IMG/VR virus record: IMGVR_UViG_3300032282_004188
Span: 1 to 63,800 of that record
Direction: 5' to 3' (one strand)
From: a virus
Taxonomy: Duplodnaviria > Caudoviricetes
DNA: 63,800 nt
Part shown: positions 3,001 through 41,627 of the stretch, piece after piece
Layout: each line of letters starts with the position of its first letter
Numbering within the stretch: position 1 is the stretch's first letter
The notes under the pieces: generated by a model
Told to the model about the DNA's origin: nothing
Seen by the model: the letters and a program-made list of their open reading frames with translations, nothing else
The model's database searches: none
Position numbers and translations under genes: made by a program

Positions 3001-6000
3001 CTGGCAACTGAGCTGTAACACTATTGACCGCGGCAAAACCTATTGTTGAAAATTGATCTTTTTGAGGATTGGAAACTGATGGTAAGGGCATTCTGGCAAT
3101 AGTCGTTTGAGCTAGTCCTAAAAGACCTGTCCCAGAAGATTGAATCGTGTCCATAAAACTAGTAAAACCTAAGGGTCTATCCAATTCCAGTATACCAGAA
3201 CTAGGCTTTAAGGTTATTTTTGTTTCATTTAAAAACTCTGCCTCTAATTGAAGGAAATATATAAGATTAGCCGATAATAAAGCTCCACCTTGTGAGAAAG
3301 AATTTAACTGAGCTTCTTTAATTCTTTTATCTAGATTTTGTTTTTTTGATAGATTTGACAACTGCGATTCGTTACTATCTCCATCGTCAAAATGGTCCAC
3401 AATTCTAGCAGCGGGGGCAAAAGGATTTATAGATCCTTGAAAAAAATCAATGATCCCCGATGCTGTTGATCTTTGATCTCCTGCAATATCATTTAAGTAC
3501 TTACCAAATAATCCACCATCTCTAACTTCATAAGATTTTTTATCAAGAACTGTAGTTTCTGATATTGTATAATATGGATATTTAAATCTTGGAGGAAGAT
3601 TATCTAACTGTCTATGATCATAACTTGGAGTGAGAGTAGCGTAGGTTGTGGGCTCAGGGCTGACTGGTAAGTGAAAACCCATTTTAACTTTACCAATACT
3701 AACGGGGAGTTTAGAAACAATAATTTCATTTCCATCTTTATCTTTACTGGTTCTAGTTGTTGCTAAATTTGAATCAAAATTTAATAATTTTCCTGCTAAT
3801 TTTTGCGTTGGCGCGTATACCCCTTTTGATGATGCTTGATCCTGTGCCAATCCAGCCATAACATCACTAAGTTCTTCGGATCTTTTAAATGCTTCATAAT
3901 CTGCTAACGAGTTTGACTGTTTATTAACATTATTCATAATCGTTTGAATATCTTCATTGGGACTTCTATACTTAGGATATCCTTGCAGTTGTAATTCATT
4001 TGCTTTTTTTACACTTGGAAAACCTGTGGTTATTGGAATTACGCCAGAAGTATATAACCAATGTGGTTTTCCGTAAAAAATAGTAGACCTATCTTCAAAG
4101 GGTCTTACTGCTACAATATAATTGGGCAGTAGTCTTGCACATATCTGAAAAAGATCCCATACAGTTCTCATATATGTTTGTGCCCGGAAAGATACTTCAT
4201 CAAATCCGCTTAAATCATCATCAGCGTTTGGCGCTATGATTCCCATTGTCCGGAATACGTTATTTCCCCCTCTTCCACTTAGTAGGCCCGTAAGTGCCGC
4301 TCCTCCCGCCAATCCCGCAATAACATTAACTCCAGGTATCGCGGCAATTCCGGCTGTTACCCCTCCCATTAAAACGTTTTTTACAGCCCCTGCTCTTCCT
4401 TCAGCTGAAACCAGTTTATTATCTTCGACATAAGAATCTATTGTATTACTAGATGACACTGAACCATTTTGCGCCTCTACTATTAGCCTGTTCCATGATC
4501 TATCCGTTCCATTTTCCAGATATTGTTGTCCTGCTAAGACTTTTCCATCATCCTTGACCATAGAAGAAGCGGTTAACCAGCCATCGTCCAAGTCTCCACC
4601 TAAGAACTGCGCAAATCCTGTTCCATTTCCAGGGTAAATATTTCTTTTATATAGTTCTAAATCAACTTCTGAACAAAAATTAGACATTAGCTGACCCATG
4701 CTAGTCATGATATTTCCGTTTCCGAAAAATGCATTAACGGGGTTTCTTTGAAAAATATTTGTTGATAATTTAAACGTAGCAGCATTTGCGGTTCCGCCTA
4801 TATCTCCCTGACCCGCGTTTGCGTAAGCGTTGGTAACAACATTCCTTAGTCCATCAGCTCTTTGTTTTTCAACCTCATTAAGAGGTTCGTATAGAATGGT
4901 GCCAAAATGTCTAATGCCAAATCTATTTTCGGAAAATACAGTTCCAAGAGTTGACCTTGCTATAGCCTCACGAACCCTAGAAGCTCCCATGCTCAGTAGT
5001 CTGACCATTAAATCTCTTGGCTCAGAAAGATACATTCCAGTATCTACTCCACCATCTATTTTTCCCGAATCGCCTTTTTTATTTGTTGAGTTTACAATGG
5101 CTCCAAGTTCAATAGCGTCAGACTGTGCCGTGACCGTAACTATCTCCCCCTCTTCAACATTTGTTATTACCCCATTAAATAATGTTTGCAGTGAGTTTGG
5201 ATTAGAGCCATACCCACCTCTTAAGTGAACTCTAACTCCGGGCTTTAATCTAATATTATTAATGTCTACTACATAATCATTTCTCATTCCTGAGACAATA
5301 TTTTTAGCTATATTTAAGGTGCGATCTAAAATGGCACTAATTCCATCCGTAGAGTTTAAAGGGTCAGAATTAAAGTCGTCATTGCGTGCGTTAAATATGT
5401 CTGTAGATGGGCGCGTCGTTAATTTAGAGTACATATTTGAAACTCTTAGTATTAGAGTGTCTCCCAGTAAGTCCTCAGATGATACAACTGAAAAATCTAT
5501 AACAGACTGAAGTCCATAGAAATTATCAAATAACTTGACTCCTGCAAACATTCCTCCTTCATCTATTAGCCACAGCATATAGGTTGGAAATGCTCTGAGC
5601 ATTCGTCCAGATATATCCCTATACTGAACGTCATTGAGCATTTTTTCTATATGGTTATTAAATGATCCATCATAAGCTTTTTGATATGATGAAAGTGGTT
5701 GAGCGCCACTAATTCCAGTAAGGGAATTTTTACATCCTGTATCTGGAGTTTGCGTGTCTACTGTATGATTACTTGCTAGTTTTTTAGCTCCGTCACTTTC
5801 GACTTTAACATTACTACCCTCTATTGTCAGGTAAAATCTTCCAGTATCTTTATTAATGTAACCAAAATGTGTACCGAGGGCACTGTACATGATTGCCGGT
5901 ATTTCATTTGGCTGATCTTTTTCCGGGTTAGTCAGCGGCATAAGGTTAATAATTTTATGGAATTCTACCTCGTCTGGATTAAAACTAACAAATTCTTCTT

Positions 6001-9000
6001 CTGCCAAATGGGACGTAGCTAACACCTGCTTAATTATGTCTTCTGTTTGGGCACTTGTTATTCCTATGTTGCCTATAACATATGGTGATCCATTGATTTC
6101 TTCAAAAAATTGTTTATCTTCAGAAGATTGTGAAGCTAAAAATATATAATCAGTTAAGAGCGCGCGCTTTGAATTGTTATTAATGGTGTCATTATCATTT
6201 TCTTTTATGATTTGTTGAAAAATATAAACAAAATTATGGATACTAATTCCAGTTGAGTTTACATAATCTATTAGTTCGTTAATTAAATCTTCATTTTTTT
6301 GTCGTCTAGATTCAATGGCAACTGGGTTTGCTGCGTCAGTAAAAGAATATCTTCTAATAAAATTTATAGTACTATTTTTTACCGACTGAAGCCTACTTTC
6401 CAGGGAATCTACTGATCCCTGCGCCCATTCATCTGCACTGTCGAAAGTAAAACCCTTGGTTAGATCCATTTGGATTGTTGTATTATTTATAATGTCACGA
6501 TCAAACATTTCAAAACTTCTAAAATAGAAATCTGGATCCATATTGCCAACAATATCTCCGTTAACATCCTTTATTCCCAGTGGCAAATCTGGATATGCAT
6601 TGAAGGATCCCCACAACTGCTTTATTCTTAGAAATGGATTTCTTTTTGTACCAAAATGTTCAATTAATTCTTTTTGTTGCTTTGAGGATATTTTCTCTCT
6701 TTGCTGTTGGAATATATCAAAGTCAACTAGGCTTAATTGTACGGAGTAAACGTGTGGATAATTCGGTATTGTATCAACCTTATAATTAAGCGGTAAGACA
6801 TATTTAATACCAGATAGCGCAGTTATAATGTTTTTAATTCCAAGGAATCCTATAACGCCAGTAGAATGCTCCAATCTTGCTAGCGCATTCACATGGTCAA
6901 ATACAGATTTAATTTTTAATAATTCTTTTTCACCAAAAACTGTCATAGATACATTAATATAACTATCTTTTCCGCCAATATATTGATAGCTTGGCTCATC
7001 TTGCATCTGGATTTGCAACTTAGCTAGATTGTTTCCCATTGATACGCTAACGCCGTTAACTATAGCGTTTTTTGGATCTAAATCTATTCGATTCATTGGG
7101 ACTTCCCACTCGTTAAAGTGATAATCTCCATCTCTTAATCTGACGGCGTCCATCATATCCTTAACAAATCCGTCAGAAAAAAATCTCTCATACATGTTTA
7201 CTTGAAAAGCGTCAGTGACCTGTTGTTTAATTTTTTCCCTATCTGGTTCTATTCCAGCGCTTTTAGTTTGTCTAATGAATTCTTCATCAATTAATTTTTC
7301 TAATATAGTTCCAGATTGCTTAGATCTTTCATAAAGTCTCATCTTAATTTCATTCAAACTTAAATCACTTACAAGTACATCATCTAGAAAATAAGATTCG
7401 TTAGTACTGGAGTATTGAGAAAAATATCCTGCTGTTTTACGACTTTCTTCATCGCTTGCATAATTTAAAAACCAATTTACTTGTTCATTATCTAATCTTA
7501 TTTTATTGGCATTTACGAAAGAGGTTGCTAAGTAAAGATAAACTTTTTCTCTTTCGTCAGAAGTAGATATGCCTGCGGTGAGGATATCAATTGCTTGTCT
7601 AATAAATGATTTTGTAGAATTTGAAAAAGTATTTTCCGTAGCCATTGATTTAACTTTATCAATGTCTTTGATCAGAGGAGTATTGACAGAGCGCTCTATA
7701 CCAAAGGAAGTCAGCAGCCTATCCCATAGCCCAGTTGCTGTATCGTTTAATATTTTCTCTTGATCACTTCTAAATGAAGTATTATCTGGTAGAAATATTT
7801 TTGTCTGCGTTTCAGCTGGGGTAAATAAAGTTATGTTACTTCCATCTCTCCATTGAGAAATTATATTAGTTGACATAACGTCATTGTTAAACGAATTAAA
7901 ATACGTGAGTTGCGTATCCTCTGGAAGCACGTCTAAGTTAAAGTTTTCAGATAGAGCTTCAATCCCCGCCGCTGTTTGTTCCTGCATATTTACAACGGTG
8001 TCTACCGTTTTATTATCTGAAGTTTTAAGTAGGAAACTTTCATTCACATACTTATGCATTTCTCCCGCTGCTTTGCCCATGTATTGGCGATATTTACCCC
8101 AATGTATTGCTTGATTGAAATCTTTAAGCATTGGGAGAAACGGTTTATGATTAAAGTGCACCATTTCCAAATCGATAACAAGGGCAAATGGGTAATTTGG
8201 AACTGTCGATATAGACATATTCGAGAGTCCAACAGCAGAGATTCCATGTGCAGAATTAAGATAACTGTTTTTAATTGGGAGGATTGGAGAGTATTTGAAC
8301 GCTGCGACTAAACCTCTCAGAGATGAGAGAAATTTATCTATTTTTTGTTCGTCATCTCCACCATTTTTAAAATCAATTGTAAAACTGTTATTTAGATTAA
8401 TCGATGCGGCATCTTCTATGGACAGCCCCCATATTTCTTCATAATTCGGGAAAAATAATCGCATGGATATTGTAGTTTCTTTATATCCCGTATTGAACTT
8501 GGGCGTATTTTTTTGCCTGATTGCCCCGCCTGTTAATGATCCAGTTTTAAAGTTAGAATTTACACTAATTGAAACCGGAGGAACATAGAAATTAGCGGCT
8601 CCCAACCTAAGATGAAAAATATCTGGTTTTCTGGGAGGAATATTCTCCCTAAAAGGAAAGTCAATAATAGCCTGCTTAATTCGCTGTGCCGTATTTTGTA
8701 CTTTAAAGGCTAATGTAAATATTGCCTGGCCACCTTTAGTAACTCCAAAGGCTTTTTCTAGTGAGTCAATTGCATCGGCTTCATTATTTAGGGTATCTTC
8801 CATTCCACCGCCTTGGCCGTCATTAGAGTAATCACCCACCGCTGCTAATGCGTCGAAAAGAAATATAACTAAACTTGGGAAATAAAAATTTATAATAGAA
8901 AATGCAATTGGATCTTTTTGAAGATTGTAAACTACTTCACTTAATATTGTTAACCAAGGCGTATCAACTTCTGGAACGATATAATCATTCATGGAATTTT

Positions 9001-9916
9001 TAACTGTTGCAACGCTTTGCAACCTTTTCTTTGCAAACTCGCTAATTTCATATGCGAATGATGCTAACTGCAGTAGTCCGCTTGCCTCTAACTTCGCATA
9101 GACAGATTTAGATGTTGTAATATCTAATTGTATAGAACCAAGAGCGCCTAATCCAAAAACTCTACTAGTTACCCCTTTTGATATATCATTAGCTGTGTAA
9201 TTTACTCCCCTTGTTGACAAGAAGTATTTATCTATTGCCCCATTAATATCGTTAAGTTCATTTATCGGATCACTACCATATACGTTGTTTAAAAATATTC
9301 TAAACTCCGTTAGATAATCTTTGGAATTTTCATCTTGTGTATTGTTATCTTCTAGTTCTTTATCTTTTTCTGTTGTATTAATTACTTCATTTGTTTCAAT
9401 TGCTGCCAGGTCTTCATCAGTTATTCCGTTTTCGCCTATGTAACTTTTCCAGATATTAAGCCTGTCAATAATAATTGACTTAGCTGTTTGCATTGTGATT
9501 TTTTTTGGAAAATTGTTAGGTAAGTAGGCGTAAAAAAACCAACTTAGTGCTTCTTCTATTTTTGGAACATTTATCGTAGCGTATCCGAAATTAACTGCCC
9601 ATGCCTGAAATGTTTCAAGTACAAATAATGAATTTGAATCTTTATCTAAAACTTCGCAGTTTGCCAAACGAAGCATTGACAAATACGCGTACTGGTCGCC
9701 TGTACTTTTGAAGTCATCATCGATTGCATAAATAAGGGCTTTTCCACCTTGATTATTATCATGACCAATTATATCCGGGTAAGATCCTGGCAAAATTAAG
9801 AACGAGTACATCTCGTTTTCATTGAAACCCGTAATATCTTCAATTATTGAATTAATACGATCTTCATTTTCAGATAGATACTTTAAGAGATCTTTTGCTA
9901 TTGGATTAATTGCCAT
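2..9916 (-). CDS. Giant virion protein, >=3305 aa, 3'-truncated by window edge; baseplate hub / late-control-D-like
   Basis: Not in ORF track (no stop inside window). ATG at 9916 with AGGAAAG RBS gives MAINPIAKDLLKYLSENEDRIN... Frame spot-checked open at ~5287, ~2896 and the left edge (...ALMKDIMSNQTATSLPEKA). Hub-like segments RLKPGVRVHLRGGYGSNP...FNGVITNVEEGEIVTVTAQSD and GELTIIGNPDIRPHDLVYLSDVYNRMYGIFEVEQVVHHF. Lies downstream of the tape-measure-like gene. Confidence 0.75.
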   Translation of the reverse strand, partial: MAINPIAKDLLKYLSENEDRINSIIEDITGFNENEMYSFLILPGSYPDIIGHDNNQGGKALIYAIDDDFKSTGDQYAYLSMLRLANCEVLDKDSNSLFVLETFQAWAVNFGYATINVPKIEEALSWFFYAYLPNNFPKKITMQTAKSIIIDRLNIWKSYIGENGITDEDLAAIETNEVINTTEKDKELEDNNTQDENSKDYLTEFRIFLNNVYGSDPINELNDINGAIDKYFLSTRGVNYTANDISKGVTSRVFGLGALGSIQLDITTSKSVYAKLEASGLLQLASFAYEISEFAKKRLQSVATVKNSMNDYIVPEVDTPWLTILSEVVYNLQKDPIAFSIINFYFPSLVIFLFDALAAVGDYSNDGQGGGMEDTLNNEADAIDSLEKAFGVTKGGQAIFTLAFKVQNTAQRIKQAIIDFPFRENIPPRKPDIFHLRLGAANFYVPPVSISVNSNFKTGSLTGGAIRQKNTPKFNTGYKETTISMRLFFPNYEEIWGLSIEDAASINLNNSFTIDFKNGGDDEQKIDKFLSSLRGLVAAFKYSPILPIKNSYLNSAHGISAVGLSNMSISTVPNYPFALVIDLEMVHFNHKPFLPMLKDFNQAIHWGKYRQYMGKAAGEMHKYVNESFLLKTSDNKTVDTVVNMQEQTAAGIEALSENFNLDVLPEDTQLTYFNSFNNDVMSTNIISQWRDGSNITLFTPAETQTKIFLPDNTSFRSDQEKILNDTATGLWDRLLTSFGIERSVNTPLIKDIDKVKSMATENTFSNSTKSFIRQAIDILTAGISTSDEREKVYLYLATSFVNANKIRLDNEQVNWFLNYASDEESRKTAGYFSQYSSTNESYFLDDVLVSDLSLNEIKMRLYERSKQSGTILEKLIDEEFIRQTKSAGIEPDREKIKQQVTDAFQVNMYERFFSDGFVKDMMDAVRLRDGDYHFNEWEVPMNRIDLDPKNAIVNGVSVSMGNNLAKLQIQMQDEPSYQYIGGKDSYINVSMTVFGEKELLKIKSVFDHVNALARLEHSTGVIGFLGIKNIITALSGIKYVLPLNYKVDTIPNYPHVYSVQLSLVDFDIFQQQREKISSKQQKELIEHFGTKRNPFLRIKQLWGSFNAYPDLPLGIKDVNGDIVGNMDPDFYFRSFEMFDRDIINNTTIQMDLTKGFTFDSADEWAQGSVDSLESRLQSVKNSTINFIRRYSFTDAANPVAIESRRQKNEDLINELIDYVNSTGISIHNFVYIFQQIIKENDNDTINNNSKRALLTDYIFLASQSSEDKQFFEEINGSPYVIGNIGITSAQTEDIIKQVLATSHLAEEEFVSFNPDEVEFHKIINLMPLTNPEKDQPNEIPAIMYSALGTHFGYINKDTGRFYLTIEGSNVKVESDGAKKLASNHTVDTQTPDTGCKNSLTGISGAQPLSSYQKAYDGSFNNHIEKMLNDVQYRDISGRMLRAFPTYMLWLIDEGGMFAGVKLFDNFYGLQSVIDFSVVSSEDLLGDTLILRVSNMYSKLTTRPSTDIFNARNDDFNSDPLNSTDGISAILDRTLNIAKNIVSGMRNDYVVDINNIRLKPGVRVHLRGGYGSNPNSLQTLFNGVITNVEEGEIVTVTAQSDAIELGAIVNSTNKKGDSGKIDGGVDTGMYLSEPRDLMVRLLSMGASRVREAIARSTLGTVFSENRFGIRHFGTILYEPLNEVEKQRADGLRNVVTNAYANAGQGDIGGTANAATFKLSTNIFQRNPVNAFFGNGNIMTSMGQLMSNFCSEVDLELYKRNIYPGNGTGFAQFLGGDLDDGWLTASSMVKDDGKVLAGQQYLENGTDRSWNRLIVEAQNGSVSSSNTIDSYVEDNKLVSAEGRAGAVKNVLMGGVTAGIAAIPGVNVIAGLAGGAALTGLLSGRGGNNVFRTMGIIAPNADDDLSGFDEVSFRAQTYMRTVWDLFQICARLLPNYIVAVRPFEDRSTIFYGKPHWLYTSGVIPITTGFPSVKKANELQLQGYPKYRSPNEDIQTIMNNVNKQSNSLADYEAFKRSEELSDVMAGLAQDQASSKGVYAPTQKLAGKLLNFDSNLATTRTSKDKDGNEIIVSKLPVSIGKVKMGFHLPVSPEPTTYATLTPSYDHRQLDNLPPRFKYPYYTISETTVLDKKSYEVRDGGLFGKYLNDIAGDQRSTASGIIDFFQGSINPFAPAARIVDHFDDGDSNESQLSNLSKKQNLDKRIKEAQLNSFSQGGALLSANLIYFLQLEAEFLNETKITLKPSSGILELDRPLGFTSFMDTIQSSGTGLLGLAQTTIARMPLPSVSNPQKDQFSTIGFAAVNSVTAQLPENVDDFSFEYELTDQISYDEWGCPTTAVEEQFYIAMRWPYLPSISETSLAKFKNIYFPDPDTSLSGTVSDYKKRKVLVFSPLTGRAVVCAPAYFMWGENNEDDVAAVVSPDAAWYLGTFVSTIDDKIAIDGSQLADSLPAWANLSLYDGIGLDNSILKKIEKETALSSFPRDVDCFFGFVPDDTPLGVVSSEAAPAKRFYDSNDSRAYIIGFGNYAINDNGDSNKFIASKAIIEAPGGMSADSAERYLDKNISSIEEYVASNSMVSIPNYEYAGNVIKSGDDPGYFKAVIDANYDALDRGKLYERLDAELYTTGDEKTGSGRIGFGAVYSSLDSISVEARSFYDENFDPNVSVIAGNGRTLDQASDIWDQFRFGYHTYDSVKAIFTKTYGMDADSIDPFPAEFSRILGGSNASPFSNFSDREVDVPGLSTIGRADATGVDELAILLGSDFFNGPSNPQLGGQGVATTNAETRIKAVEFIRANYIDFQSKGIQGDAGIIQYFNSVISRSLDGIKSNFFETGVIDNALSIEIENKNNPATAIKLSEVIKTPHQLFLLMVGLFRQKLWSSAYGRAWLVLKPDRKRGAITPGGGGEDGQWSFKPVDKVFEAFINPYSQYAKEDSRFLKLLVSTKGEGNNSSTFIGGIDEDVSDFYNSNIGPILGAIGDGLSALLGMFKLSMMQMGYALSEVGNFSKQAHILNKVLNDSIYYSLGRPGSLLRAVDNPFTREYGEPVMEIRQPFQRIHYLSSFSHIISNQIQENLNNVSTVITAVSDGKNPVTVALDKGAPSERQTETTVETGLYYDNMIGSGFLGVLHPFMHPLETFRGYAKTLQGTPDELSARRVALSHLKESIKDIYGGELTIIGNPDIRPHDLVYLSDVYNRMYGIFEVEQVVHHFTSEMGYVTTVTPNALVTVNDPSKWFLSSWIHSWLSMQNMRNDTRFYMDNIMASNSGINAGGNISVDALADALSTQMIGGIQYTHGSSALMKDIMSNQTATSLPEKA

Positions 9917-9925
9917 TGGACTTTC

Positions 9926-10375
9926 CTATTTAAACATCATATTGTTACGAACAATAGTTCTAAGTCTATCACTTGAAGAATCTTTCATGGTAACAGAAGT
10001 ATAGTTATTCATTATACTAGACTTTGTTTCTTTTTTGAAGGAATCTAAGGTAAAATTTTGCTTTTTTGTTTGCAGGTCTTTATTATATCTAGCTTGCTGG
10101 TGTCTTTTACCACTGTATCCGCTGCCATTCATCTCAAGACGGGTAGTCGGAGCGTCATCTAAACCTTCTTTGGAGTATTTGACCTTATCGGACTTTCCTG
10201 ATGCTTGTATCTTTTGACGCGATTCACTGACTACATTTTGGGTTGGACTTTTACTGGAAGCTATCTTTGCTGCGTATTTGTTTGCCGTTAAGGATCTATG
10301 AGATGTATCTTTGGGCTGTTTTGCAGCAGCGCTTAATGCCTTGTTTTGGTCCTTGACATTTAAAATCATATACAT
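9926..10375 (-). CDS. Hypothetical basic Lys/Ser-rich protein (149 aa)
   Basis: ORF fills the gap between two giant genes; AAGG upstream; no recognisable motif. Confidence 0.7.
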   Translation of the reverse strand: MYMILNVKDQNKALSAAAKQPKDTSHRSLTANKYAAKIASSKSPTQNVVSESRQKIQASGKSDKVKYSKEGLDDAPTTRLEMNGSGYSGKRHQQARYNKDLQTKKQNFTLDSFKKETKSSIMNNYTSVTMKDSSSDRLRTIVRNNMMFK

Positions 10376-10381
10376 TTAACC

Positions 10382-13300
10382 TTAATAAGATTGAGCCATC
10401 GATTGATATGGATCTCTTGCCACATCCGGGATTCTATTATACATAGTACTGTTAATACTTCCATTAGTAAGTCCTGATGCTGCTGTGCTGAACTTTTGTA
10501 TTTGATCTCTATCTCCGAACAGGGACACCTTATAGTTCATGCCAGCAGTGTAGCCTTGACCTCTGGCCTGAGGAATCTCTGGTGACCTTCTCGGGTAGTC
10601 GGATTCATAGGCAGATCCGCCTGGCAAAAGTGGTGGACCAGAAATGTCTTCCTTAGTGTGATCTTTTTTGTTTTGATATAGAAAGCTAGCTGCTATTGCC
10701 AATCCGGCACCTATTGCTGCCTTGCGAACATTCGACTTTCCAAACTGTTCAGCCAAATATTCTTTATTGATCCTTTTATAGGCTGTTTTAGTGGCTGAAG
10801 ATTGACCATGACCTGATAAGTCCCTAAGCGTGTCGGCTACAATTTTAGAAGTTTGATCTGTAATATCGCCTGCAGATTTGAGAACACTACCTGAAGCTAA
10901 ATCTCCATTTAGGAACGCAGCAGCTTCCTTATCAGCTTGTGCGGTTTGTTCAAAAATTGTTTTACTCCTTAAACCATTAGCTATCTGTCGTTCTTCAGTA
11001 CTTCCCAATCCTTCAGCACTTTGGCCTTTTATCAATGAAGAAATCACGGAAGAGTCGTTGTTCGTTCCAAAAAAGTCATCTGCAAAAATTAGGTCCAAAT
11101 CTTTTTCTAAAGTGCCCGCTTTTTGCGCATCGGTCATTTGACCAAAAATGTTATCAACATACTGCCTGAGCTCAACGTTTTTAGTTTGTCTTTCGTATAT
11201 AGCTTTTTGTTCTGAAATTTGCATGTATCTATGAAAAAGATTAGCACTTCCCCCTTCTGCATTTACTGACGAGTCTGGAAGTTTAGTGAAAAATTCTGGG
11301 GCTAATTTTCTTTTGATTCCACTATACTGAAGAGCGCCCGTTAGCTCATGCCCAGATATGCCCATTGATCTTTGCACTTCGTGCATACTTTCTAGTAGTC
11401 TATCGCCTAATTCTATTCTTTTTACTTCTAATGTCGCTTTTACTATTTCCCCTCCTTCATCTTTAGCCACTGTGTCGCCTAGTTCTTGTATTGATTTGAT
11501 TAGGTTTGCATTTTCATCTAATATTTTTTCTGAAGCAACTCGAGAACGCTGTGTAATCCTGGATGCTAGTTCTTGTTCTCTGGATATTTGTGAATTTGCA
11601 CTTAATCTTTTCATTGCGTTAAGGTAATAGTCTGAAGTAGAAGCTATATCTATCATTTCGGAAAGAGATCCCTTATCTATAATTCCTCTAGCTCTCAAGA
11701 CTTGTTCTACTTTGTCAAATTGTCCAGATCCTACGGCCGTATTAATGTCGGCTACATCTGCGCCAGTATCTGCTAATGCCATTCCCTCTGATAAACTCCT
11801 TGCAAAATTTATAAGATCATTATTATTCATTTTTCCACTAGTTAAAAAAGCCTCATCTATTATTCCCGCAAAAGTTCCTCCATGTTTTTGCTTTAAATAA
11901 CCAAACATTTTTCCATACTGATTCATTGTATTTTCGCCTAGTTTATTTAGGTCGGTACTTTCTCCATACAACATTTTAAGTGCTCTATCAGCCTGTCCGG
12001 CATCTGTGTTCAGTATCTCGGACGTATATTGCATCATCATTCTTCCGGAAGTAAAAGTTTGAGTCATGTCAATGACACTTTCAGCGGAGGGGAAACCTAG
12101 CATTAGTTCTTTGCTAAGTAAGTCTTTTTCTATTCCAGGAATTCCTCCTAACATATCTTCCATTTGCCTCATTCCGTGGCCCACTACAGTAGCTCTATTT
12201 ATGTATTGTCCAAGTATGTTCTTATTTGCTATTGCCGTATCAATGCTTTTATTTATAAAAGTTTTACCAAATGCAGCGGCTTTTTGCTCTGCGTTAAGTC
12301 CCAAGTTTTGAATTTCAGCGTAAAATTTTTCAGATAAATCGTCTATTGCTTGCGAACTTCCGTTTGAAAGATTTTTCCTCTGTACTTCTAAGTCTTTTAC
12401 TATCTTACTTAATCCTGTTTTTTGTCCCGTAGTTATCATGCCATCCAGACTTGATAATACATCGGCTTCAAGTGGCATGTCAGCTATTTCTGCTTTTAGC
12501 CTTTGAAATCCAAGCGACATTAATGATGGATCTTCATTTCCTAACGCAATTAATTTTGTTGCAGAAAAATTGGTTATTTCATTTTCGCCAGATTTTAATA
12601 CTCCTAATTTTTCAAAAAAGTTTCTATTGAAATCTCGCATTCCGCCAGTTCTAACACCATTTGAGTCAAACTTAGCGCCACTCATCATGTCATTAACATC
12701 AATAGTCAGTTGCTCTAGCATGCCCATTGTATTCGGATTAAAAAGGTCGTCTGACATTCCAGTTCCATCAAGAGCGCTCGATAAAACTTTATATTTAGAA
12801 TCTTTTTCAGCCATCTCATTTAAGGTATTCATAAAGAATCTATTGTTACCAAATATCTCGCGATAACTTTCTATGTCTTCAAATCTAGTAAGACCAATAA
12901 CTTCACCCATTGAAGTAGGTTGACGAACCATGGCAGCGGCTAGTTTGCGCTTACCTTCAGACATATAAGTTCCAAGTATAGGAAGGCCCTTGTCGTCTAG
13001 GTCGAAACCACCAAGTGCATGATAGAACTTTCTGATATCTTTTTCGCTAAATAAGATATTATGATTGGATACTCTAAATTGCGTAATTTGTGCAGAGATT
13101 TCATTGCCAACTTCACCTATTTTTTCTTCAATTGGATTTCCTGATAATATTTTTCTTCCAGTAGTTCCGGTCATTGCATTTGTTTCGGAGTTAAGGGCAA
13201 ATCTATACACGTCACCAACGACTGGGAGCTTCTGCCCATTCTTGGTTTTGTACAACTCAGATTGATACCATTTAGATAATAAATTTATATATTCTGGAGA

Positions 13301-15133
13301 ATCATTAATACTTACTCCAGTATTATGTAAATCTAGAATCCTTTGTTGGAAATCTTTGCTCAACATTTTTGAGAACTGCTGAGGCTCTAAGAAGTCTTCT
13401 ACGTCCTGCTCTGCGCCTTTCCTAATTGCTTGCAAGACCTTACTATCTTCTGTTAAATACCCTCTGGATAATATTCCTTCAAATTCATTTAATACATTTC
13501 TTGAATGAGCTTTAGCTATTAGTCTATCTTCCTCATTCCCAAACGCTGCATTATGAAAAGCTACTAGCATTGGATCGGTATACACCCTAGAGGTGGATTC
13601 AGCTAATCCGCTAAAATTCACAATTGGAGTTCCGGCTCCTATTCCTGTTTCTTTTTTTAATCCACTAATTGCAGTAATGATTCCATATTTATCAAATCTA
13701 TCTGAAAACTTTTTAATCTGAGCTGCCGTTTTATAGGAATAATCTATTTTGCCAATTCGGACAGAACCTCGAATTGTACCCTGGGATAATCCTATTGCTT
13801 CTCCGTCCTTGCCTATAGTTATTTCGGCTAATTGTCTTCTTAATTCAACCTTACGAATCATTGATTGTTCGTCTCTGTTTTGTGTAAGACCTAATAATTC
13901 CTCTTGTAAGTTTTCCCTTAATCTTTTCGCGTACTTTACGTTCACTAGTGACGATCCATCTCGACCTTTTTCTAGTTCACTAAAAAGACCTTTGAGAACA
14001 TCTTTAGTGTCTTTATCTGATTCATTTTTTAGTAAATTTTTTACTTGCTCGATACCATATCTTCCCTCTGCGGCATCTATGTCTCCAGTTCTAATGGCTT
14101 CGCTTATTAGATCCCTCAGTGAACTTTTTATTTCGGCAGATTTTGAACCAAGCTTTTTTGATTCAATTATTTCATTTAAAACCTCGTCAACATACTTTTC
14201 TGCTTCTTGACTTGCTGTTCTGGCACCGTCGTATTGAAATTCAAAAGATTCCCTTACATATGCTGCTACATCTTGTTGCTTAAGTGATTTTCCTAGTGAT
14301 GTATCTTCTCCAAATGCTAAGGCCATTGTTTCAAATACGCTATCAACATTAAGCGTTACGTCTGACAGCTGTTTCATTAAATGTTCAGATCCGACTCCTG
14401 TAGTATTAAAAGGAATTTTAGGCCCAAGAAAGGCTTGCATAAGATCGCCAGATATAGATACATCTCTTGGGGATAGAATGCCTTTTAATCTTTTTGGAAG
14501 TTTTGCAAATAATTTAGATAACCCTGCGTTTCCGTTTTTCAATGCCTCATTCAATTCGCCTGGGGTAAATAAAGGTTTTCCGCTCTTTGACATTGCCTCA
14601 AGTGTTTCTTGCATTGATAGAACCCGATCACCTTGATAAAGACTAAGAGCCATTCCACCATCATCAGTGGGGAAAACTAATCCGGTTCCTTGTTCTTTCA
14701 TTTTTGTTAGAAAATCTCCAACACTCTTAGATCCAACTTCTGCTTTATGAATTTTAATTTGCGCACCATATTGCTGATCTCCAGTTAATCCAAGTGTTTG
14801 ATTAATATCTTTTAGCACTTGAGCATAGCCTCTATACTCTGATGGGCCAAGGGATCCTGGTTTAATGTCAGCTAGTTCAGTAATTCCGTGACCAGATAAA
14901 TAATCCATAGATTCTTGTAGCGAGTCAGAAACAAGTTGTGCTGACTGCCCCTGATTTAACCTCAAGGAGTCAATGTAAGTTGATTTAAATTTTAATTTTC
15001 CATCAACTTCTATAGGTTCTATTAAACCTTTTTGGCCAAAATATGTTTTACTTAAAGCTTGTTTAGCTAAAAGTATTTGTCTCTCCATGGGCATAGGAGA
15101 AAGATAGGACGTAATATAATCACTTAAGGACAT
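10382..15133 (-). CDS. Large putative virion/ejection protein (1583 aa) with RNA-polymerase-like acidic motif and C-terminal TM helix
   Basis: Long ORF coupled to the upstream gene (TAATG overlap at 15133); motifs LGGFDLDDKG and MVRQPTSMGE; hydrophobic AAIGAGLAIAASFLY near the C-terminus. Function is inference. Confidence 0.55.
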   Translation of the reverse strand: MSLSDYITSYLSPMPMERQILLAKQALSKTYFGQKGLIEPIEVDGKLKFKSTYIDSLRLNQGQSAQLVSDSLQESMDYLSGHGITELADIKPGSLGPSEYRGYAQVLKDINQTLGLTGDQQYGAQIKIHKAEVGSKSVGDFLTKMKEQGTGLVFPTDDGGMALSLYQGDRVLSMQETLEAMSKSGKPLFTPGELNEALKNGNAGLSKLFAKLPKRLKGILSPRDVSISGDLMQAFLGPKIPFNTTGVGSEHLMKQLSDVTLNVDSVFETMALAFGEDTSLGKSLKQQDVAAYVRESFEFQYDGARTASQEAEKYVDEVLNEIIESKKLGSKSAEIKSSLRDLISEAIRTGDIDAAEGRYGIEQVKNLLKNESDKDTKDVLKGLFSELEKGRDGSSLVNVKYAKRLRENLQEELLGLTQNRDEQSMIRKVELRRQLAEITIGKDGEAIGLSQGTIRGSVRIGKIDYSYKTAAQIKKFSDRFDKYGIITAISGLKKETGIGAGTPIVNFSGLAESTSRVYTDPMLVAFHNAAFGNEEDRLIAKAHSRNVLNEFEGILSRGYLTEDSKVLQAIRKGAEQDVEDFLEPQQFSKMLSKDFQQRILDLHNTGVSINDSPEYINLLSKWYQSELYKTKNGQKLPVVGDVYRFALNSETNAMTGTTGRKILSGNPIEEKIGEVGNEISAQITQFRVSNHNILFSEKDIRKFYHALGGFDLDDKGLPILGTYMSEGKRKLAAAMVRQPTSMGEVIGLTRFEDIESYREIFGNNRFFMNTLNEMAEKDSKYKVLSSALDGTGMSDDLFNPNTMGMLEQLTIDVNDMMSGAKFDSNGVRTGGMRDFNRNFFEKLGVLKSGENEITNFSATKLIALGNEDPSLMSLGFQRLKAEIADMPLEADVLSSLDGMITTGQKTGLSKIVKDLEVQRKNLSNGSSQAIDDLSEKFYAEIQNLGLNAEQKAAAFGKTFINKSIDTAIANKNILGQYINRATVVGHGMRQMEDMLGGIPGIEKDLLSKELMLGFPSAESVIDMTQTFTSGRMMMQYTSEILNTDAGQADRALKMLYGESTDLNKLGENTMNQYGKMFGYLKQKHGGTFAGIIDEAFLTSGKMNNNDLINFARSLSEGMALADTGADVADINTAVGSGQFDKVEQVLRARGIIDKGSLSEMIDIASTSDYYLNAMKRLSANSQISREQELASRITQRSRVASEKILDENANLIKSIQELGDTVAKDEGGEIVKATLEVKRIELGDRLLESMHEVQRSMGISGHELTGALQYSGIKRKLAPEFFTKLPDSSVNAEGGSANLFHRYMQISEQKAIYERQTKNVELRQYVDNIFGQMTDAQKAGTLEKDLDLIFADDFFGTNNDSSVISSLIKGQSAEGLGSTEERQIANGLRSKTIFEQTAQADKEAAAFLNGDLASGSVLKSAGDITDQTSKIVADTLRDLSGHGQSSATKTAYKRINKEYLAEQFGKSNVRKAAIGAGLAIAASFLYQNKKDHTKEDISGPPLLPGGSAYESDYPRRSPEIPQARGQGYTAGMNYKVSLFGDRDQIQKFSTAASGLTNGSINSTMYNRIPDVARDPYQSMAQSY

Positions 15134-18100
15134 TATCTAACACCTGCATTAATATCAATTTGCTCCGATCCAAAAGGATTCATAACTGGAATAACAGATC
15201 CTGAAACTCCCATACCACTCATTAAGGACCTTAATCTTGATGCAGTATCTGTCTGAGATCCAGATCCACCACCAAATCTAGGATAACTAGGATTTGCCAA
15301 GTTAGCTTCTTGTAGCTGTTGAGGATAGTAACCCATTTGAGACATTTCTAGACCCATATTTTGGCCAATTTTTATTTTAACTTGATCCATGTTGGTATTT
15401 GGGTGCCAACCTTCCCAGTTTTCGCTTGGGAGTTCATGCTTAGAAAAGTAATCGGTCAATTCTGGTTTTTTTTCTACATCCATGCCCCATGCAGCTTCGT
15501 ATATTCTTCTTTCAAGTCTTCCGGCTGTAGATAATATTCTTCCTCTTTCATCTACGGGGGCATTAATCATGGCTTTAAAATGTTCTCGTTTTCTTTTTGG
15601 TATAGATAAAGAAAGTGACTCTATATCTGTTCCGTATTTTCCTGAATTTATATCCTCTATTGGGGCACCATACATTGTTCTTTTTGCAGCTGACTCATAT
15701 TGAAAGGCTGCACCTTTGTCTCCAGCCATATTTGCCATTTTAGCTAATCTAGTATTTTTAGTATAATTCAATATGTCTGCATACTCTTCTAGTGCAAGTT
15801 CCTTTTTCCTAGTCCTTGGCATGAACTGCTCTCCTGTAACTGCCTTATTTGCTGAGTGAAATGAGGAAACGCTTAAACCGGTTACCGCCCCAAGTGTTGA
15901 CATTATAAATTTGCCTTTGCCTGATTCTCCAAAAAATGTACCAGCTACAGCCAATGTGGCTGCTGCAGTTATTGGATTTCTATTACCCGCTTTATTAATC
16001 ATTGGAGCTACAAAACTCTCAAAAGGCCTCTGCCATTCGGGGAACGTTGCCCCGTATACATTATTTCTTTCCCAATCCTCTGTAGCTGTTTGTTTATTTA
16101 TAAACTTTTTATTAATAAAAGTATCTCTATGCGCTAGCATTTCGCCTGCTCTGCTCAGTGCATGAACAGTGGGGTGCATTCCCATTTCTCCTGGAGTGCT
16201 ATTTTTATATTTATATTCAGTAAAATTTTTTTTCTGTTGTATTGATGCTGCGCGCTCTCGAAGTTCTTGGACTCTTAATTTATCTGTAGGACTACTTACC
16301 ATGGAGTCTATTGTTTTATCTAGTGACCTAAACTGTTTAGAGTAGGGTGCAACGTCACCAAGTATTTTATATTGGTCTAATACGCCGTATTGACCAGTGG
16401 CATCGGGGCTTAGTTTATTTAATCGTTCATATGCTACTCCTGGCAGCCTCAACTCTCCTTCTGCGACCTTTGTAAAAGGGTCACCCGTAGTAAAGTCAGT
16501 AAAGTATTCTGATCCTGGAAGAAATGGATATTGTTTGCCCATTGCATTCTTAATTGGATTTATATAGTCAATTCCAGATCTTTCCTTGGGTATGAATCTT
16601 CTTGTTATTTCTGAGAATTCAATAGAGCCTATCTGCCTCCCGCCCAACATGGGTATATCTCCTAATCCCCCCAGGTTAAGGTCCCAGAATTGCCTTCCCG
16701 TTCCGTATCCCTTAGAGGCTGATTGAAGAACTGATCTTTGCGGCGTTAAGTCTGTTTGTCCTAATCCAAAATTTTCTCGCAAATTACTAGCAGCAAAACC
16801 GTAAATGCCTAGCATTTCTTGAGTTCTATATCCAAGTTCTTGTGCTTGAATTTGCGGACTTCCAACGTTCACTGGACTACCAGCAGGGACAATGCGTTGT
16901 GGCATGACTCCAGTAACCTTAGGTGGTCCATAGGCCATCTGCATGTATTGATTATTAATGCCAGATATTGTATTTCGAGTTTCATTTCTTGCAGTATTCA
17001 GAGATCCAGCTCTTCCAGCTAACATTGCATTAGAAGATGCCTGTGTGCCGTTTGGGGGGCCTCCAAATCCTCCCATGGCCATTCCACCAGCAACTCCACC
17101 CATACCCCCAAAAACGCCACCTCTGCCATTAATATATGGATCTGCATTATATGCTCCAGATTGACCAGCTGGTACATAATTTGCTAGTCCAGCAGTTACT
17201 TCTTGCTGATGCATCATGGTCTGCGGTTTAAGCACTTTTCCAACGGTTGCATTAAGTGCGGGAACAAGAGGGCCAAATGGTCCACTGAAATATTCTCCAG
17301 ATACAGGATATGGCCTATCTTCAAAGTGTTTACGCTCAAAGCGATATGGATCTAATGGTCTAAGTGGGGAAATGTCAGTATAGAATAACGCTCTTTCTAT
17401 TGGGCTCCCCATACTTTCTGAGGTGAACATTGCTCCAGCTTCTAGTTTGCGGTATATACTCGGGCGGTAATACATAATCTTTCCGCCCATAAATGGAGTG
17501 TTGCCTAGTGGCCAGAATCGACCCTGCCTAATTGCCACTTCACCTTCAAATAACTGCTCTTTCTTTTCTTGAAAATTCATTCCGCCAGGAGTGATTCCAG
17601 ATCCAAGGGCTTGTAAATTGCCCGCTGCTTTTGCTGCGCCACCAATGAAAAATGGCGAGTAGACTCTTTCGCCTCTACTGTCTTTTTCGTTTACCATACC
17701 GCCGATAGTTCTATCGACAGTCATTATTCCTAGGCCAGCACCGTATATGGGCAGGATTCGTTTACCTACCATTCCGCTTGTAAATAAACTTAATGGGGAA
17801 CCATATTGAGAAACGTCTAGCTGTAAACCAATAGTTCCAAAATATTTATTTAATCTTTCAACACTATGAGATACCGCTGCTGATGCATTAGAGTAACTTT
17901 CTGTACTATTATAGGTATTAATTCCTAGGGCACTTTTTATTGCACCATATGGATTCTTTGCAAAAACAGTGCCGAAAGTTGGAACTAATAAAACATCTGC
18001 ACCGGGGCCCCTAGTTGATCCAAGAACATCTGTTGCCGATTCAGATATTCTATAAGGAGCTGTGCTTAGTCTAGGATATAATGCCTTTTTAATTAATCCA

Positions 18101-21752: not shown

Positions 21753-22382
21753 CTAGCCTGATCCCCACAGCTTGTGCGCAATGGGGTCTTGATAAGCTGC
21801 TTCTCCTTCTTTTTTGGAAAGATTATGACGAGCAGCTGTAATTTTTTGTTTCTGTACTTCTTCCTCTGGGTCAATCAATTGAAGCGTTAGATTGGTAGGT
21901 TCCATGCCATTCATATTTTGCTTAATTTCAATTATTTTTTCTGAAAGAGCTACATTTTCAGCTAATTCAGAGAATGTCATATTTTCTAAATCATCTGGGG
22001 TGTATGTAGATATAGTAGCGAGAACAAAGGCTTTCATTAAATTTTTCACCTCAGTAGCTTCATATCTTTTTGCCTCAAGAATATTTTTAGCTAAAGATAC
22101 AGTAAAAAAACCTGATATATTTAATATCTCCTGGGACAATGACGAGACTGCCCCAGGAGATATTGACATTAAATCAAAATTTTCCGGATAGATAATAGCA
22201 TATGAGAGAATCAGGTCTTCCATATCAGCGGAAGAAAAACCATCCAAACCCTGAAGATATAATATCTTATTATATTCTTTAAAAGTTAATTCTCTGAAAA
22301 CTAAAGTTTGACTTTTTACATCAACGCTATAGATGTTTCCATATTTACTTTTTAAGGTAAATACTAACTCTGGGTCTATCAT
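21753..22382 (-). CDS. Tail assembly chaperone-like protein 2 (209 aa)
   Basis: LKSKYGNIY..VFRELTFKEY pattern typical of tail chaperones; sits between the tube genes and the tape-measure-like gene. Confidence 0.6.
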   Translation of the reverse strand: MIDPELVFTLKSKYGNIYSVDVKSQTLVFRELTFKEYNKILYLQGLDGFSSADMEDLILSYAIIYPENFDLMSISPGAVSSLSQEILNISGFFTVSLAKNILEAKRYEATEVKNLMKAFVLATISTYTPDDLENMTFSELAENVALSEKIIEIKQNMNGMEPTNLTLQLIDPEEEVQKQKITAARHNLSKKEGEAAYQDPIAHKLWGSG

Positions 22383-22385
22383 AAA

Positions 22386-26755: not shown

Positions 26756-26801
26756 TTTATTTTTATCCTCCAAATTTCAAAACTCTATTTGAATCTTTCC
26801 T

Positions 26802-41599: not shown

Positions 41600-41627
41600 G
41601 TATCTCTCCAATATGAAAACTATATAT

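What the first reader, a model, noticed from the sequence alone, without database searches (positions are those of the whole stretch)
12900..13080. RNA-polymerase-like acidic motif in a giant protein coupled to the tape measure: possible virion-delivered RNAP
Seen: in the 1583-aa protein, a beta-rich patch FRVSNHNILFS..FYHALGGFDLDDKGLPIL...AAAMVRQPTSMGEVIGL stands out from helical surroundings. Knowledge: two-barrel RNA polymerases use DxDxD (NADFDGD; GGDLDGD in cellular RdRPs) plus an R-x-P motif (NRQPTLH/NRAPTLH), and some phages inject virion RNAPs, including tape-measure-fused ones. Inference: DLDD followed by RQPT would be a variant with reversed motif order (permuted barrel). The gene overlaps the tape-measure stop and has a C-terminal TM helix, which fits a co-ejected, membrane-anchored enzyme. 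The motif is non-canonical, so this is tentative.
Basis: partly seen in the sequence, partly recalled or inferred. Interest (0 to 1): 0.72.

Follow-up and report, generated by a model that had tools for sequence, protein, structure and literature searches.

The report
RNA-polymerase-like enzyme in phage tail gene
A 1583-residue protein encoded among the tail genes of an uncultured large contractile-tailed phage probably contains a very divergent copy of the two-barrel catalytic core of cellular-type RNA polymerases, so the phage may carry its own transcription enzyme into the host.

Summary
Window 12900-13080 (minus strand) encodes residues 685-745 of a 1583-aa ORF (10382-15133), with FRVSNH, LGGFDLDDKGLP and RQPT as quoted.

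In 109 relatives at about 20-87% identity, only seven columns of the core never vary. All lie here: G708, D711, D713, D714, R737, P739, E744.

The barrel order is canonical, so I found no support for a permuted barrel. Two features are non-canonical: the metal loop reads D-x-D-D, and R-x-P follows it.

The gene keeps one slot in all 80 related loci: two chaperone-like genes, a gp145-like gene, this gene, a 149-aa gene, then the baseplate hub. All five near-complete relatives also carry compact ~850-915-aa genes with the same motif order, some with canonical DxDGD.

Virion delivery and activity are inferred. This scan noted the family before on four other genomes.

The parts
10382..15133 (-). 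1583-aa ORF (P0001), the candidate tail-borne two-barrel RNA-polymerase-like protein
   Evidence: No Pfam, PHROG or PDB sequence match. 40 relatives and 131 cluster representatives.
13940..13960 (-). Conserved D392-G393...N398, upstream of the folded part. Candidate for the fourth Asp of the first barrel (QDE-1 D709 equivalent). This is inference.
   Evidence: Invariant in 24 sequences. A nearly invariant D-G pair in 109 sequences, probably the same two columns. Not included in either model.
13604..13801 (-). First beta-barrel (residues ~445-510) with near-invariant R455, K468 and K493, followed by invariant D520
   Evidence: Strands at model 16-79. Conservation. Inside the QDE-1 alignment that starts at residue 718.
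13253..13573 (-). Helical insert between the barrels (residues 521-627), in the position of the clamp/connector
   Evidence: Helices at model 92-198. Most unrelated fold matches fall here.
12881..13252 (-). Second beta domain (residues 628-751). The double-psi barrel spans 643-724, followed by a hairpin.
   Evidence: Model strands 199-322. p97/NSF N-domain superposition on model 214-295.
12980..13015 (-). Invariant loop L707-GGFDLDDKGLP-718. D711, D713 and D714 are the candidate metal ligands.
12902..12925 (-). Invariant R737-Q738-P739 ... E744, 23 residues after the Asp loop
   Evidence: The compact paralogues show the same order.
12149..12292 (-). 48-residue helix (residues 948-995) carrying conserved L-G-x-Y-x-N-R. 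Candidate bridge helix.
   Evidence: Model 2 helix 519-566. G975 and N979 invariant, R980 nearly so. QDE-1 alignments run on to residue 1148.
12056..12100 (-). Conserved segment with E1018 and D1022. Candidate trigger-loop region (inference).
   Evidence: Invariant. Family consensus IGxxxxExAID.
10676..10720 (-). Conserved hydrophobic run A1472-Y1486 flanked by basic residues. Possible membrane segment.
   Evidence: Sequence, conservation. Below the 19-residue TM threshold.
10385..10645 (-). Highly conserved C-terminal ~87 residues (GPPLLPGGSAYE ... ), function unknown
   Evidence: Many invariant columns from 1499 to 1576
15133..21738 (-). Upstream 2201-aa gene, homologue of 0305phi8-36 gp145 (virion structural protein). 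Its stop overlaps the start of P0001 (TAATG).
21753..22943 (-). Two small genes (209 and 185 aa) in the position of the two-gene tail chaperone of 0305phi8-36
9926..10375 (-). 149-aa Lys/Ser-rich gene that always follows P0001
   Evidence: Present in 70 of 80 loci, and the 10 misses are loci cut short.
2..9916 (-). Giant baseplate-hub gene (at least 3305 aa, runs off the window), homologue of 0305phi8-36 gp147

Best explanation
P0001 is a very divergent single-chain member of the two-barrel (double-psi beta-barrel) polymerase superfamily. It is built into a tail-lumen protein of a contractile-tailed phage related to Bacillus phage 0305phi8-36.

Proposed mechanism:
1. The first barrel (R455, K468, K493, perhaps D392 or D520) would hold the RNA 3' end and the NTP phosphates.
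2. The invariant loop G-G-F-D711-L-D713-D714 of the second barrel would bind catalytic Mg2+.
3. The 48-residue helix 948-995 would serve as bridge helix.
4. The protein would be assembled into the tail next to the gp145-like protein and the hub, ejected at infection, and would transcribe the first phage genes without host RNA polymerase. This is the role Thermus phage P23-45 gp96 plays.
5. Compact ~850-915-aa paralogues elsewhere in related genomes would be the non-virion enzymes.

Shown here: the conservation, the predicted fold, its best structural matches, and the fixed gene slot.
Inferred: metal binding, polymerase activity, template type, presence in the virion, and ejection.
For: **Conservation**
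- All 7 invariant core columns in 109 relatives lie in residues 708-744.
- 14 columns are invariant in 52 viral-contig copies, including D520 and R644.

**Fold, model of residues 430-800** (pLDDT 85.8, pTM 0.79)
- Each of the other 45 listed rows aligns 91 residues or fewer.

**Fold, model of residues 430-1140** (pLDDT 81.2)
- The 9 rows with more than 300 aligned residues are all QDE-1 or RDR2.
- That QDE-1 range holds R738, K743, K767, the Asp triad 1007-1011, the bridge helix and trigger-loop D1116, by passages of PMC9508822.

**Gene context**
- In 80 of 80 related loci the gene sits in the same slot. Every missing neighbour is explained by a locus cut short.
- The start overlaps the upstream stop.

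**Paralogues in relatives**
- 5 of 5 near-complete relatives carry compact genes. These read HGGxD[EQ]DD ... RSPNG, or in two genomes HDTWDQDGD ... RSPNG.
- hhalign of the P0001 core against 22 compact genes gives probability 46%, E 2e-4 over 139 columns. It pairs K468, K493 and D520 with their invariant K238, K260 and D285.
- The Asp-loop segments align colinearly at E 0.036.

**No other polymerase found**
- The five relatives show no PF00623, PF04542 or PF05183 match.

**Precedent**
- P23-45 gp96, sections 6, 11 and 12 of PMC10770324.
Against: - Foldseek finds nothing at E<=0.001 in the PDB for either model.
- No sequence method links the family to any polymerase. 0 of 52 core copies hit Pfam RdRP or RNA_pol families even at E<=10. 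PHROGs gave nothing relevant. PDB profile searches were empty of polymerases. hhalign against 0305phi8-36 gp99 (an RdRP-family protein) gave probability 0.09.
- The signature is D-x-D-D, not D-x-D-x-D, and the canonical R-x-P before the loop is missing.
- I could not read the coordinates, so no residue-by-residue equivalence to the QDE-1 active site is shown.
- Both models start at residue 430 and so omit conserved D392.
- Nothing shows that the protein is in virions.
- The hhalign link to the compact genes is below 50% probability.
- The PF00940 search had a silent control, so a T7-like polymerase is not excluded in relatives.
Confidence: 0.6

Rival explanations
1. The core descends from a two-barrel polymerase but no longer transcribes. 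It would be a structural or ejection module of the tape measure or tail lumen, whose acidic loop binds a metal for stability or assembly. Alternatively it performs another nucleotidyl transfer, such as priming, DNA synthesis like PolD, or RNA-templated synthesis.
For: - The non-canonical D-x-D-D loop, and no R-x-P ahead of it.
- The slot is the one labelled tape measure in 0305phi8-36.
- The ESM Atlas nearest clusters are tape-measure families, but at scores of only 0.77-0.80.
- The long helical C-terminal half, hydrophobic run and conserved C-terminus fit a tail-lumen protein.
Against: - Absolute invariance of three Asp, R-Q-P and E across 109 sequences at about 20-30% identity is typical of a working active site.
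- Basic residues of the first barrel are conserved too.
- The compact paralogues keep the same residues outside any tail context.
- The best matches are RNA polymerases. PolD is not among the listed rows.
Confidence: 0.17
2. The Asp-bearing barrel is a cell-wall-cutting domain of the double-psi barrel class (MltA / 3D / RlpA-like), as many tape measures and tail-tip proteins carry, and it helps the tail cross peptidoglycan.
For: - The double-psi barrel fold is shared with lytic transglycosylases that use catalytic Asp (recalled knowledge, not from a call).
- The gene lies in the tail module next to the hub.
Against: - 0 of 52 core copies hit any such Pfam family at E<=10.
- The matches that cover both barrels, the connector and the following helices are polymerases only.
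- The neighbouring hub matches phrog_20474, which is annotated endolysin. Its 0305phi8-36 homologue gp147 is annotated as carrying the wall-degrading domains.
- The compact paralogues lie outside the structural module.
Confidence: 0.06
3. [not shown]
For: - Z never exceeds 6.5.
- Foldseek E-values are 0.18 or worse.
- There is no profile-level link to any polymerase.
- The wide search with the long model returned only helical-bundle rows.
Against: - Four different polymerase groups come top out of 48,161 chains: QDE-1, RDR2, P74 gp62 and P23-45 gp96. They are the only rows with long colinear alignments.
- The alignment lengthens from 232 to 342 residues when the following helices are added.
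- A compact paralogue subgroup carries the textbook DxDGD at the aligned place.
Confidence: 0.12

Closest known systems
Thermus phage P23-45 gp96 (with P74-26, G20c, TSP4): virion two-barrel RNA polymerase fused to the tape measure, with non-virion paralogue gp64 / P74 gp62
   Same: - A polymerase-like two-barrel core inside a giant tail-module protein.
- A hydrophobic segment further downstream.
- One or more compact paralogues elsewhere in related genomes.
- No sequence likeness to other polymerases beyond the Asp loop, as that paper also reports for gp96.
   Different: - gp96 has canonical DFDGD at 779-783 and is 5002 residues with a metallopeptidase domain, in a siphovirus of a thermophile.
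- P0001 has DLDD, R-x-P after the loop, 1583 residues and no peptidase match.
- P0001 sits in a contractile-tailed phage, one gene away from the chaperone-like genes.
- Activity and virion presence are shown for gp96 and not here.
Eukaryotic RNA-silencing polymerases QDE-1 (2J7N, 7Y7P-7Y7T) and RDR2 (7EU1, 7W84)
   Same: - A G-G just before the Asp loop here (LGGFDLDD).
   Different: - QDE-1 has D-Y-D-G-D and the R962-S-P964 Pro-gate loop 45 residues before it.
- No Pfam RdRP (PF05183) signal in 0 of 52 copies.
- Different biology: a cellular enzyme, dimeric, with slab, neck and head domains.
Bacillus phage 0305phi8-36 gp99, an RdRP-family (PF05183) putative phage RNA polymerase
   Same: It belongs to the same broad phage lineage as this window: TerL 29% identical, and hub and gp145 homologues are present. 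It is a single-chain two-barrel enzyme with a GG before its Asp loop.
   Different: - gp99 is a non-structural gene with canonical FRSP ... GGADTDGD and matches PF05183 at E 1.1e-20.
- hhalign of the P0001 core and of the compact family against it gives probabilities 0.09 and 0.15.
- The five near-complete relatives of this window lack a PF05183 match.
crAss-like phage phi14:2 gp66 virion RNA polymerase
   Same: A large virion-packaged single-chain two-barrel polymerase that transcribes early genes (abstract of 10.1101/2020.03.07.982082, and passages).
   Different: - gp66 carries a DFDxD motif and comes from a crAss-like phage (abstract). That these phages are podoviruses and that gp66 travels as head cargo is recalled, not from a call.
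- It did not appear in my fold lists, which does not exclude likeness.

Membership tests
Two-barrel (double-psi beta-barrel) RNA polymerase superfamily | Two barrels in the order Lys-bearing barrel, connector, Asp-bearing barrel, forming one core | tested here: met
   [not shown]
Two-barrel (double-psi beta-barrel) RNA polymerase superfamily | D-x-D-x-D metal-binding signature in the second barrel | tested here: not met
   The loop is D711-L-D713-D714, invariant in 109 of 109 sequences. Three Asp are present but the third is one residue early. A compact paralogue subgroup has DQDGD at the aligned place.
Two-barrel (double-psi beta-barrel) RNA polymerase superfamily | R-x-P (Pro-gate) loop in the second barrel ahead of the Asp loop | tested here: not met
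   In QDE-1 R-x-P lies at 962-964, 45 residues before D1007. Here the only invariant R-x-P (737-739) is 23 residues after the loop. The upstream candidates R644 and R687 have no Pro.
Two-barrel (double-psi beta-barrel) RNA polymerase superfamily | Conserved basic residues in the first barrel that hold the RNA 3' end and NTP, plus a fourth Asp | tested here: inconclusive
   R455, K468 and K493 are nearly invariant. D520 is invariant in 52 sequences, and D392 in 24. Their places in space were not compared with QDE-1 R738, K743, K767 and D709.
Two-barrel (double-psi beta-barrel) RNA polymerase superfamily | Bridge helix and trigger loop after the second barrel | tested here: inconclusive
   A 48-residue helix lies at 948-995 with conserved G975, N979 and R980. 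QDE-1 alignments reach residue 1148. No residue-level check was possible.
Two-barrel (double-psi beta-barrel) RNA polymerase superfamily | Sequence-profile match to a polymerase family (Pfam RdRP PF05183, RNA_pol_Rpb1_2 PF00623) | tested here: not met
   0 of 52 core copies match at E<=10. PDB profile searches found no polymerase.
Two-barrel (double-psi beta-barrel) RNA polymerase superfamily | Templated NTP polymerisation dependent on the Asp loop | not testable with these tools
   Needs biochemistry.
Tape-measure-fused virion RNA polymerase (P23-45 gp96 type) | [quoted passage not shown] | tested here: inconclusive
   The slot equals that of 0305phi8-36 gp146, labelled 'hypothetical tape measure' on tail-length grounds only. 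There is no likeness to gp146 and no Pfam tape-measure match. The slot is fixed in 80 of 80 loci.
Tape-measure-fused virion RNA polymerase (P23-45 gp96 type) | Protein present in virions and ejected | not testable with these tools
   The only indirect hint is that the upstream neighbour's homologue gp145 is a virion protein by mass spectrometry in 0305phi8-36.
Tape-measure-fused virion RNA polymerase (P23-45 gp96 type) | A separate non-virion paralogue in the same genome | tested here: inconclusive
   The window holds none. 5 of 5 near-complete relatives hold compact genes with the same motif order. hhalign to the P0001 core gives probability 46%, E 2e-4. Their fold was not predicted.
Tape-measure-fused virion RNA polymerase (P23-45 gp96 type) | Metallopeptidase and transmembrane domains downstream | tested here: not met
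   No peptidase family matched. There is only a ~15-residue hydrophobic run, below the TM threshold.
Double-psi barrel lytic transglycosylases (MltA / 3D / RlpA) | Profile match to these families | tested here: not met
   0 of 52 core copies match at E<=10. Their absence from the fold lists is not counted as evidence.

The most novel reading that the evidence does not exclude
P0001 and the compact genes of the same phages form a separate lineage of two-barrel RNA polymerases with a rewired active site. The metal loop is shortened to D-x-D-D, and the nucleotide-gating R-x-P is supplied from a hairpin after the barrel instead of a loop before it. The phage clade (about 170-210 kb, contractile tails, widespread in metagenomes) would run a host-independent transcription programme. 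That programme would start with an enzyme threaded through a contractile tail tube and be continued by one or two compact paralogues.
Probability: 0.3. Interest if true: 0.85.

Novelty: new variant of a known kind. Interest (0 to 1): 0.7.

Why it matters
If the core is active, it adds a new and very divergent branch to the two-barrel polymerase superfamily. It would show that the D-x-D-x-D and R-x-P signatures used to find such enzymes are not strictly required in form or order, so motif-based surveys would have missed it.

It would also extend the one known case of a tail-borne polymerase. That case is a siphovirus of a thermophile. This would be a large clade of contractile-tailed phages: 131 cluster representatives at 50% identity, and 108 viral contigs, of which 80 were kept.

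Finally, it raises the question of how a polymerase of about 1600 residues passes through a tail tube. The family offers natural controls, because its compact paralogues carry either DxDD or DxDGD at the same place.

Tried and rejected
**Sequence searches of P0001 and its family that gave nothing relevant**
- Pfam and PHROGs on the whole protein gave no family.
- phmmer and profile searches of the PDB found no polymerase.
- tblastn of the phage collection gave no match.
- Pfam and PHROGs on 52 core copies at E<=10 gave only scattered chance hits.

**Pairwise and profile comparisons**
- hhalign of the family against 0305phi8-36 gp146 gave probability 1.0.
- hhalign against Moorella CDS0027 gave probability 0.1, and BLASTP agreed.
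- hhalign of the core against 0305phi8-36 gp99 gave probability 0.09, and of the compact family against gp99 gave 0.15.
- A core HMM run over six-frame translations of the window and of the two phage tail regions found only the ORF itself.
- Profile searches of five near-complete relatives found one copy each. The compact genes were found only through a DxDGD DNA pattern.
- The compact family has no Pfam or PDB sequence match either.

**Structure searches that were uninformative**
- Foldseek against the PDB gave nothing at E<=0.001 for either model.
- The wide VIA search with the 711-residue model was swamped by three-helix-bundle matches to model 448-521.
- The BFVD search gave three significant hits (E 2e-6 to 4e-6), all uncharacterised proteins of 851-1141 aa. 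I could not check whether these are the compact family.
- The ESM Atlas gave only scores of 0.77-0.80 to tape-measure clusters, below the level where it is a lead.

**Ideas rejected**
- A Toprim DxDxxG reading of DLDDKG. The model is two beta-barrels, not an alpha/beta fold.

**Literature**
- Searches found no description of this family.
- The motifs GGFDLDD, FDLDDKG and DLDD are absent from the supplementary files of PMC10770324 that are held as text. One of those files was cut when stored.

**Not attempted**
- No complex prediction was run.
- No sequencing-run search was run.
Full report
**1. Observation**

The finding lies in a 1583-aa ORF at 10382..15133 on the minus strand. Window 12900-13080 encodes residues 685-745. 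The DNA there reads, in frame, QITQFRVSNHNILFSEKDIRKFYHALGGFDLDDKGLPILGTYMSEGKRKLAAAMVRQPTSMGEVIGL, so the quoted strings are real.

The start ATG shares one base with the stop of the upstream 2201-aa ORF (TAATG). AGGTG lies a few bases upstream.

**2. Is it more than chance?**

A D-x-D-D and an R-x-P in a protein this long mean nothing by themselves. Conservation is what counts.
- A word-indexed search gave 40 relatives at 25-79% identity, most of them 1540-1940 aa.
- A full HMMER scan with residues 412-978 gave 131 cluster representatives at E<=0.001, of which 108 were at E<=1e-10. The shared part was query residues ~40-370, that is protein residues ~450-785.
- In 24 full-length sequences, L707-G708-G709, D711 through P718, R737-Q738-P739, E744 and D753 are invariant.
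- In 109 sequences, the only invariant columns of the 371-residue core are G708, D711, D713, D714, R737, P739 and E744. R455, K468, K493, D520, G606, R644, K715 and Q738 are conserved at 90% or more.
- In 52 core segments taken from viral contigs, 14 columns are invariant: D520, R644, L707 to D714, R737, Q738, P739 and E744.

This is the pattern of an active site.

**3. Fold**

Neither Pfam, PHROGs, the PDB by sequence nor the phage collection gives any match.

*First model: residues 430-800 with 58 aligned sequences.*
- Mean pLDDT is 85.8 and pTM 0.79.
- It shows a first group of strands (model 16-79), a helical insert (92-198), a second group of strands (199-322) and then helices.
- Foldseek against the PDB gave nothing significant. 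QDE-1 chains had the highest TM-scores in the list, at 0.27-0.28.
- Each of the other 45 listed rows aligned 91 residues or fewer, mostly on the helical insert.
- Many p97 and NSF N-domain chains, a classical double-psi barrel, fitted model 214-295 at rmsd 2.0-2.5 A over 45-51 residues.

*Second model: residues 430-1140.*
- Mean pLDDT is 81.2 and pTM 0.77.
- It adds a 48-residue helix at model 519-566, that is protein 948-995.
- The nine rows with more than 300 aligned residues were all QDE-1 or RDR2.

By passages of PMC9508822, the matched QDE-1 range holds:
- the product-binding residues R738, K743 and K767;
- the Pro-gate loop 962-964;
- the Asp triad 1007-1011;
- bridge-helix residues 1082-1091;
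- trigger-loop D1116.

- Four separate polymerase groups top a list of 48,161 chains.
- They are the only long colinear matches.
- The match lengthens when the following helices are included.

I could not read coordinates, so no residue-to-residue equivalence is shown. Both models begin at residue 430 and so omit conserved D392-G393, which may belong to the first strand of the first barrel.

**4. What is canonical and what is not**

The order Lys-bearing barrel, connector, Asp-bearing barrel, long helix is the canonical one. I therefore see no support for a permuted barrel.

Two features are non-canonical:
- The metal loop is D-x-D-D in every sequence.
- The only invariant R-x-P lies 23 residues after the loop. 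In QDE-1 it lies 45 residues before, and in 0305phi8-36 gp99 it lies 44 residues before (FRSP ... GGADTDGD).

The barrel that fits p97 ends about ten residues after the DLDD loop. RQP therefore sits at the end of a hairpin after the barrel (model strands 286-296 and 299-309). FRVSNH (R687, H691) resembles the canonical FRSPLIH or NRAPTLH string but lacks the proline, and R687 is not invariant.

**5. Context**

The window is a phage structural module on one strand. It holds:
- large terminase (53729-55588);
- portal (39938-41611);
- capsid (34890-35948);
- tail fibre (31004-33223);
- sheath-like genes (25517-26773 and 27734-29332).

TerL and the giant hub gene are related to Moorella phage MTATph1 and the Bacillus phage 0305phi8-36 group.

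The 2201-aa upstream gene is homologous to 0305phi8-36 gp145, a virion protein by mass spectrometry (E 5e-47), and to Moorella CDS0026 (E 8e-37).

P0001 therefore occupies the slot of gp146. That gene is labelled 'hypothetical tape measure' mainly on tail length (passages of PMC2147016). P0001 has no detectable likeness to gp146.

In 80 related viral-contig loci the gene order is always the same, on one strand: 185-aa gene, 209-aa gene, gp145-like, P0001, 149-aa gene, hub.

| Gene | Loci with the gene (of 80) |
|---|---|
| 185-aa gene | 76 |
| 209-aa gene | 76 |
| gp145-like | 78 |
| P0001 | 80 |
| 149-aa gene | 70 |
| hub | 66 |

Every miss is a locus cut short by a contig end. P0001 diverges much faster than its neighbours in the same loci (E down to 1e-17, against 0 for gp145-like and hub). 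This is common for tape measures and for proteins that meet the host.

**6. Other polymerases in relatives**

The window's record is only 63.8 kb, so I used five near-complete relatives (85-100% complete, 180-210 kb).
- None has a match to PF00623, PF04542 or PF05183.
- The PF00940 search had a silent control and says nothing.
- 0305phi8-36 itself has an RdRP-family gene, gp99 (E 1.1e-20; passages of PMC2147016).

Following it, a DNA pattern for DxDGD led to ORFs of 880 and 913 aa with HDTWDQDGD.
- Homologues of 839-913 aa exist in 5 of 5 relatives.
- In three of these genomes the aligned place reads HGG[MH]D[EQ]DD.
- In all of them an invariant RSPNG follows some 25-45 residues later.
- This is the same order as LGGFDLDD ... 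RQPT in P0001.
- The compact family occurs in 34 viral-contig loci, many on contigs that also hold a P0001 homologue. Two genomes carry both a DxDD-type and a DQDGD-type gene.

Profile comparison of the P0001 core with the compact family:
- Against 22 compact genes: probability 46%, E 2e-4 over 139 columns. It pairs K468, K493 and D520 with their invariant K238, K260 and D285.
- Against 5 compact genes: probability 13.7%.
- The Asp-loop segments alone align GGxDxDD, RxP and E colinearly, at E 0.036 and probability 1.4%.

This suggests, but does not prove, a pair or trio of paralogues as in P23-45. It also suggests that D-x-D-D and D-x-D-G-D are interchangeable at this place.

**7. Explanation**

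Most likely (0.6): a divergent two-barrel polymerase built into a tail-lumen protein. It would be ejected at infection and transcribe the first phage genes, on the model of P23-45 gp96 (sections 6, 11 and 12 of PMC10770324).

Rivals:
- A polymerase-derived module that no longer transcribes, or that does another nucleotidyl transfer (0.17).
- An artefactual likeness hiding an undescribed enzyme (0.12).
- A wall-cutting double-psi barrel (0.06).

**8. Novelty**

Five literature searches and motif searches of the P23-45 paper's supplements (one file was cut when stored) found no description of this family. Supplements of bioRxiv preprints could not be seen.

The same family was noted four times before by this scan on other genomes, with the same reading. 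Those are unchecked AI notes and do not count as independent evidence.

Two defining signatures were tested and are not met in their textbook form. I therefore class it as a new variant of a known kind, not as a plain member.

Noticed in passing
Related records G001-G005: L105:3340-5982, L106:3321-6062, L110:799-3381, L109:1033-3573 (minus), L111:1-2517 (minus); also L113-L146: There is a second family of compact genes (839-913 aa) outside the structural module. They share invariant K, K-x-E, D, H..D.D and RSPNG. Some read HGGxDxDD and others HDTWDQDGD. Two genomes carry both types.
   Followed up: partly
L055:8587-13491 (record G004) and L071:8561-13820 (record G005): In one relative with direct terminal repeats, the P0001 homologue lies in four successive ORFs in different frames (about 221, 616, 407 and 437 aa). 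In another relative it lies in two (1356 and 412 aa). In L055 the gp145-like gene also looks broken. These could be real splits, programmed shifts or assembly errors.
   Followed up: partly
window 36779-38812 (minus): A 677-aa protein between the portal and capsid genes carries a ferritin/Dps-like domain (Pfam PF00210 at E 1.3e-11; phrog_3636 'DNA binding protein'). This is an unusual item in a head module.
   Followed up: no
window 47432-51943 (minus): A 1503-aa protein has ten He_PIG Ig-like repeats (E 4e-109) and an Lcl C-terminal domain. It is probably a surface or adhesion fibre.
   Followed up: no
window 2-9916 (minus): The baseplate hub gene is at least 3305 aa and runs off the window. 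It is much longer than its 0305phi8-36 (1903 aa) and Moorella homologues, which align to only 23-34% of the 1972 residues that I searched with (window 4000-9916).
   Followed up: no
window 23970-24755 and 24828-25490 (minus): Two adjacent paralogous genes (261 and 220 aa) both match phrog_9206, which is labelled 'major head protein'. They lie between the sheath-like genes and the chaperone-like genes. They may be tail-tube paralogues, as annotated for 0305phi8-36 gp141.
   Followed up: no
L003-L082: Across 80 loci, P0001 homologues diverge far faster (tblastn E down to 1e-17) than the flanking gp145-like and hub genes (E 0 throughout).
   Followed up: partly
[not shown]
   Followed up: no
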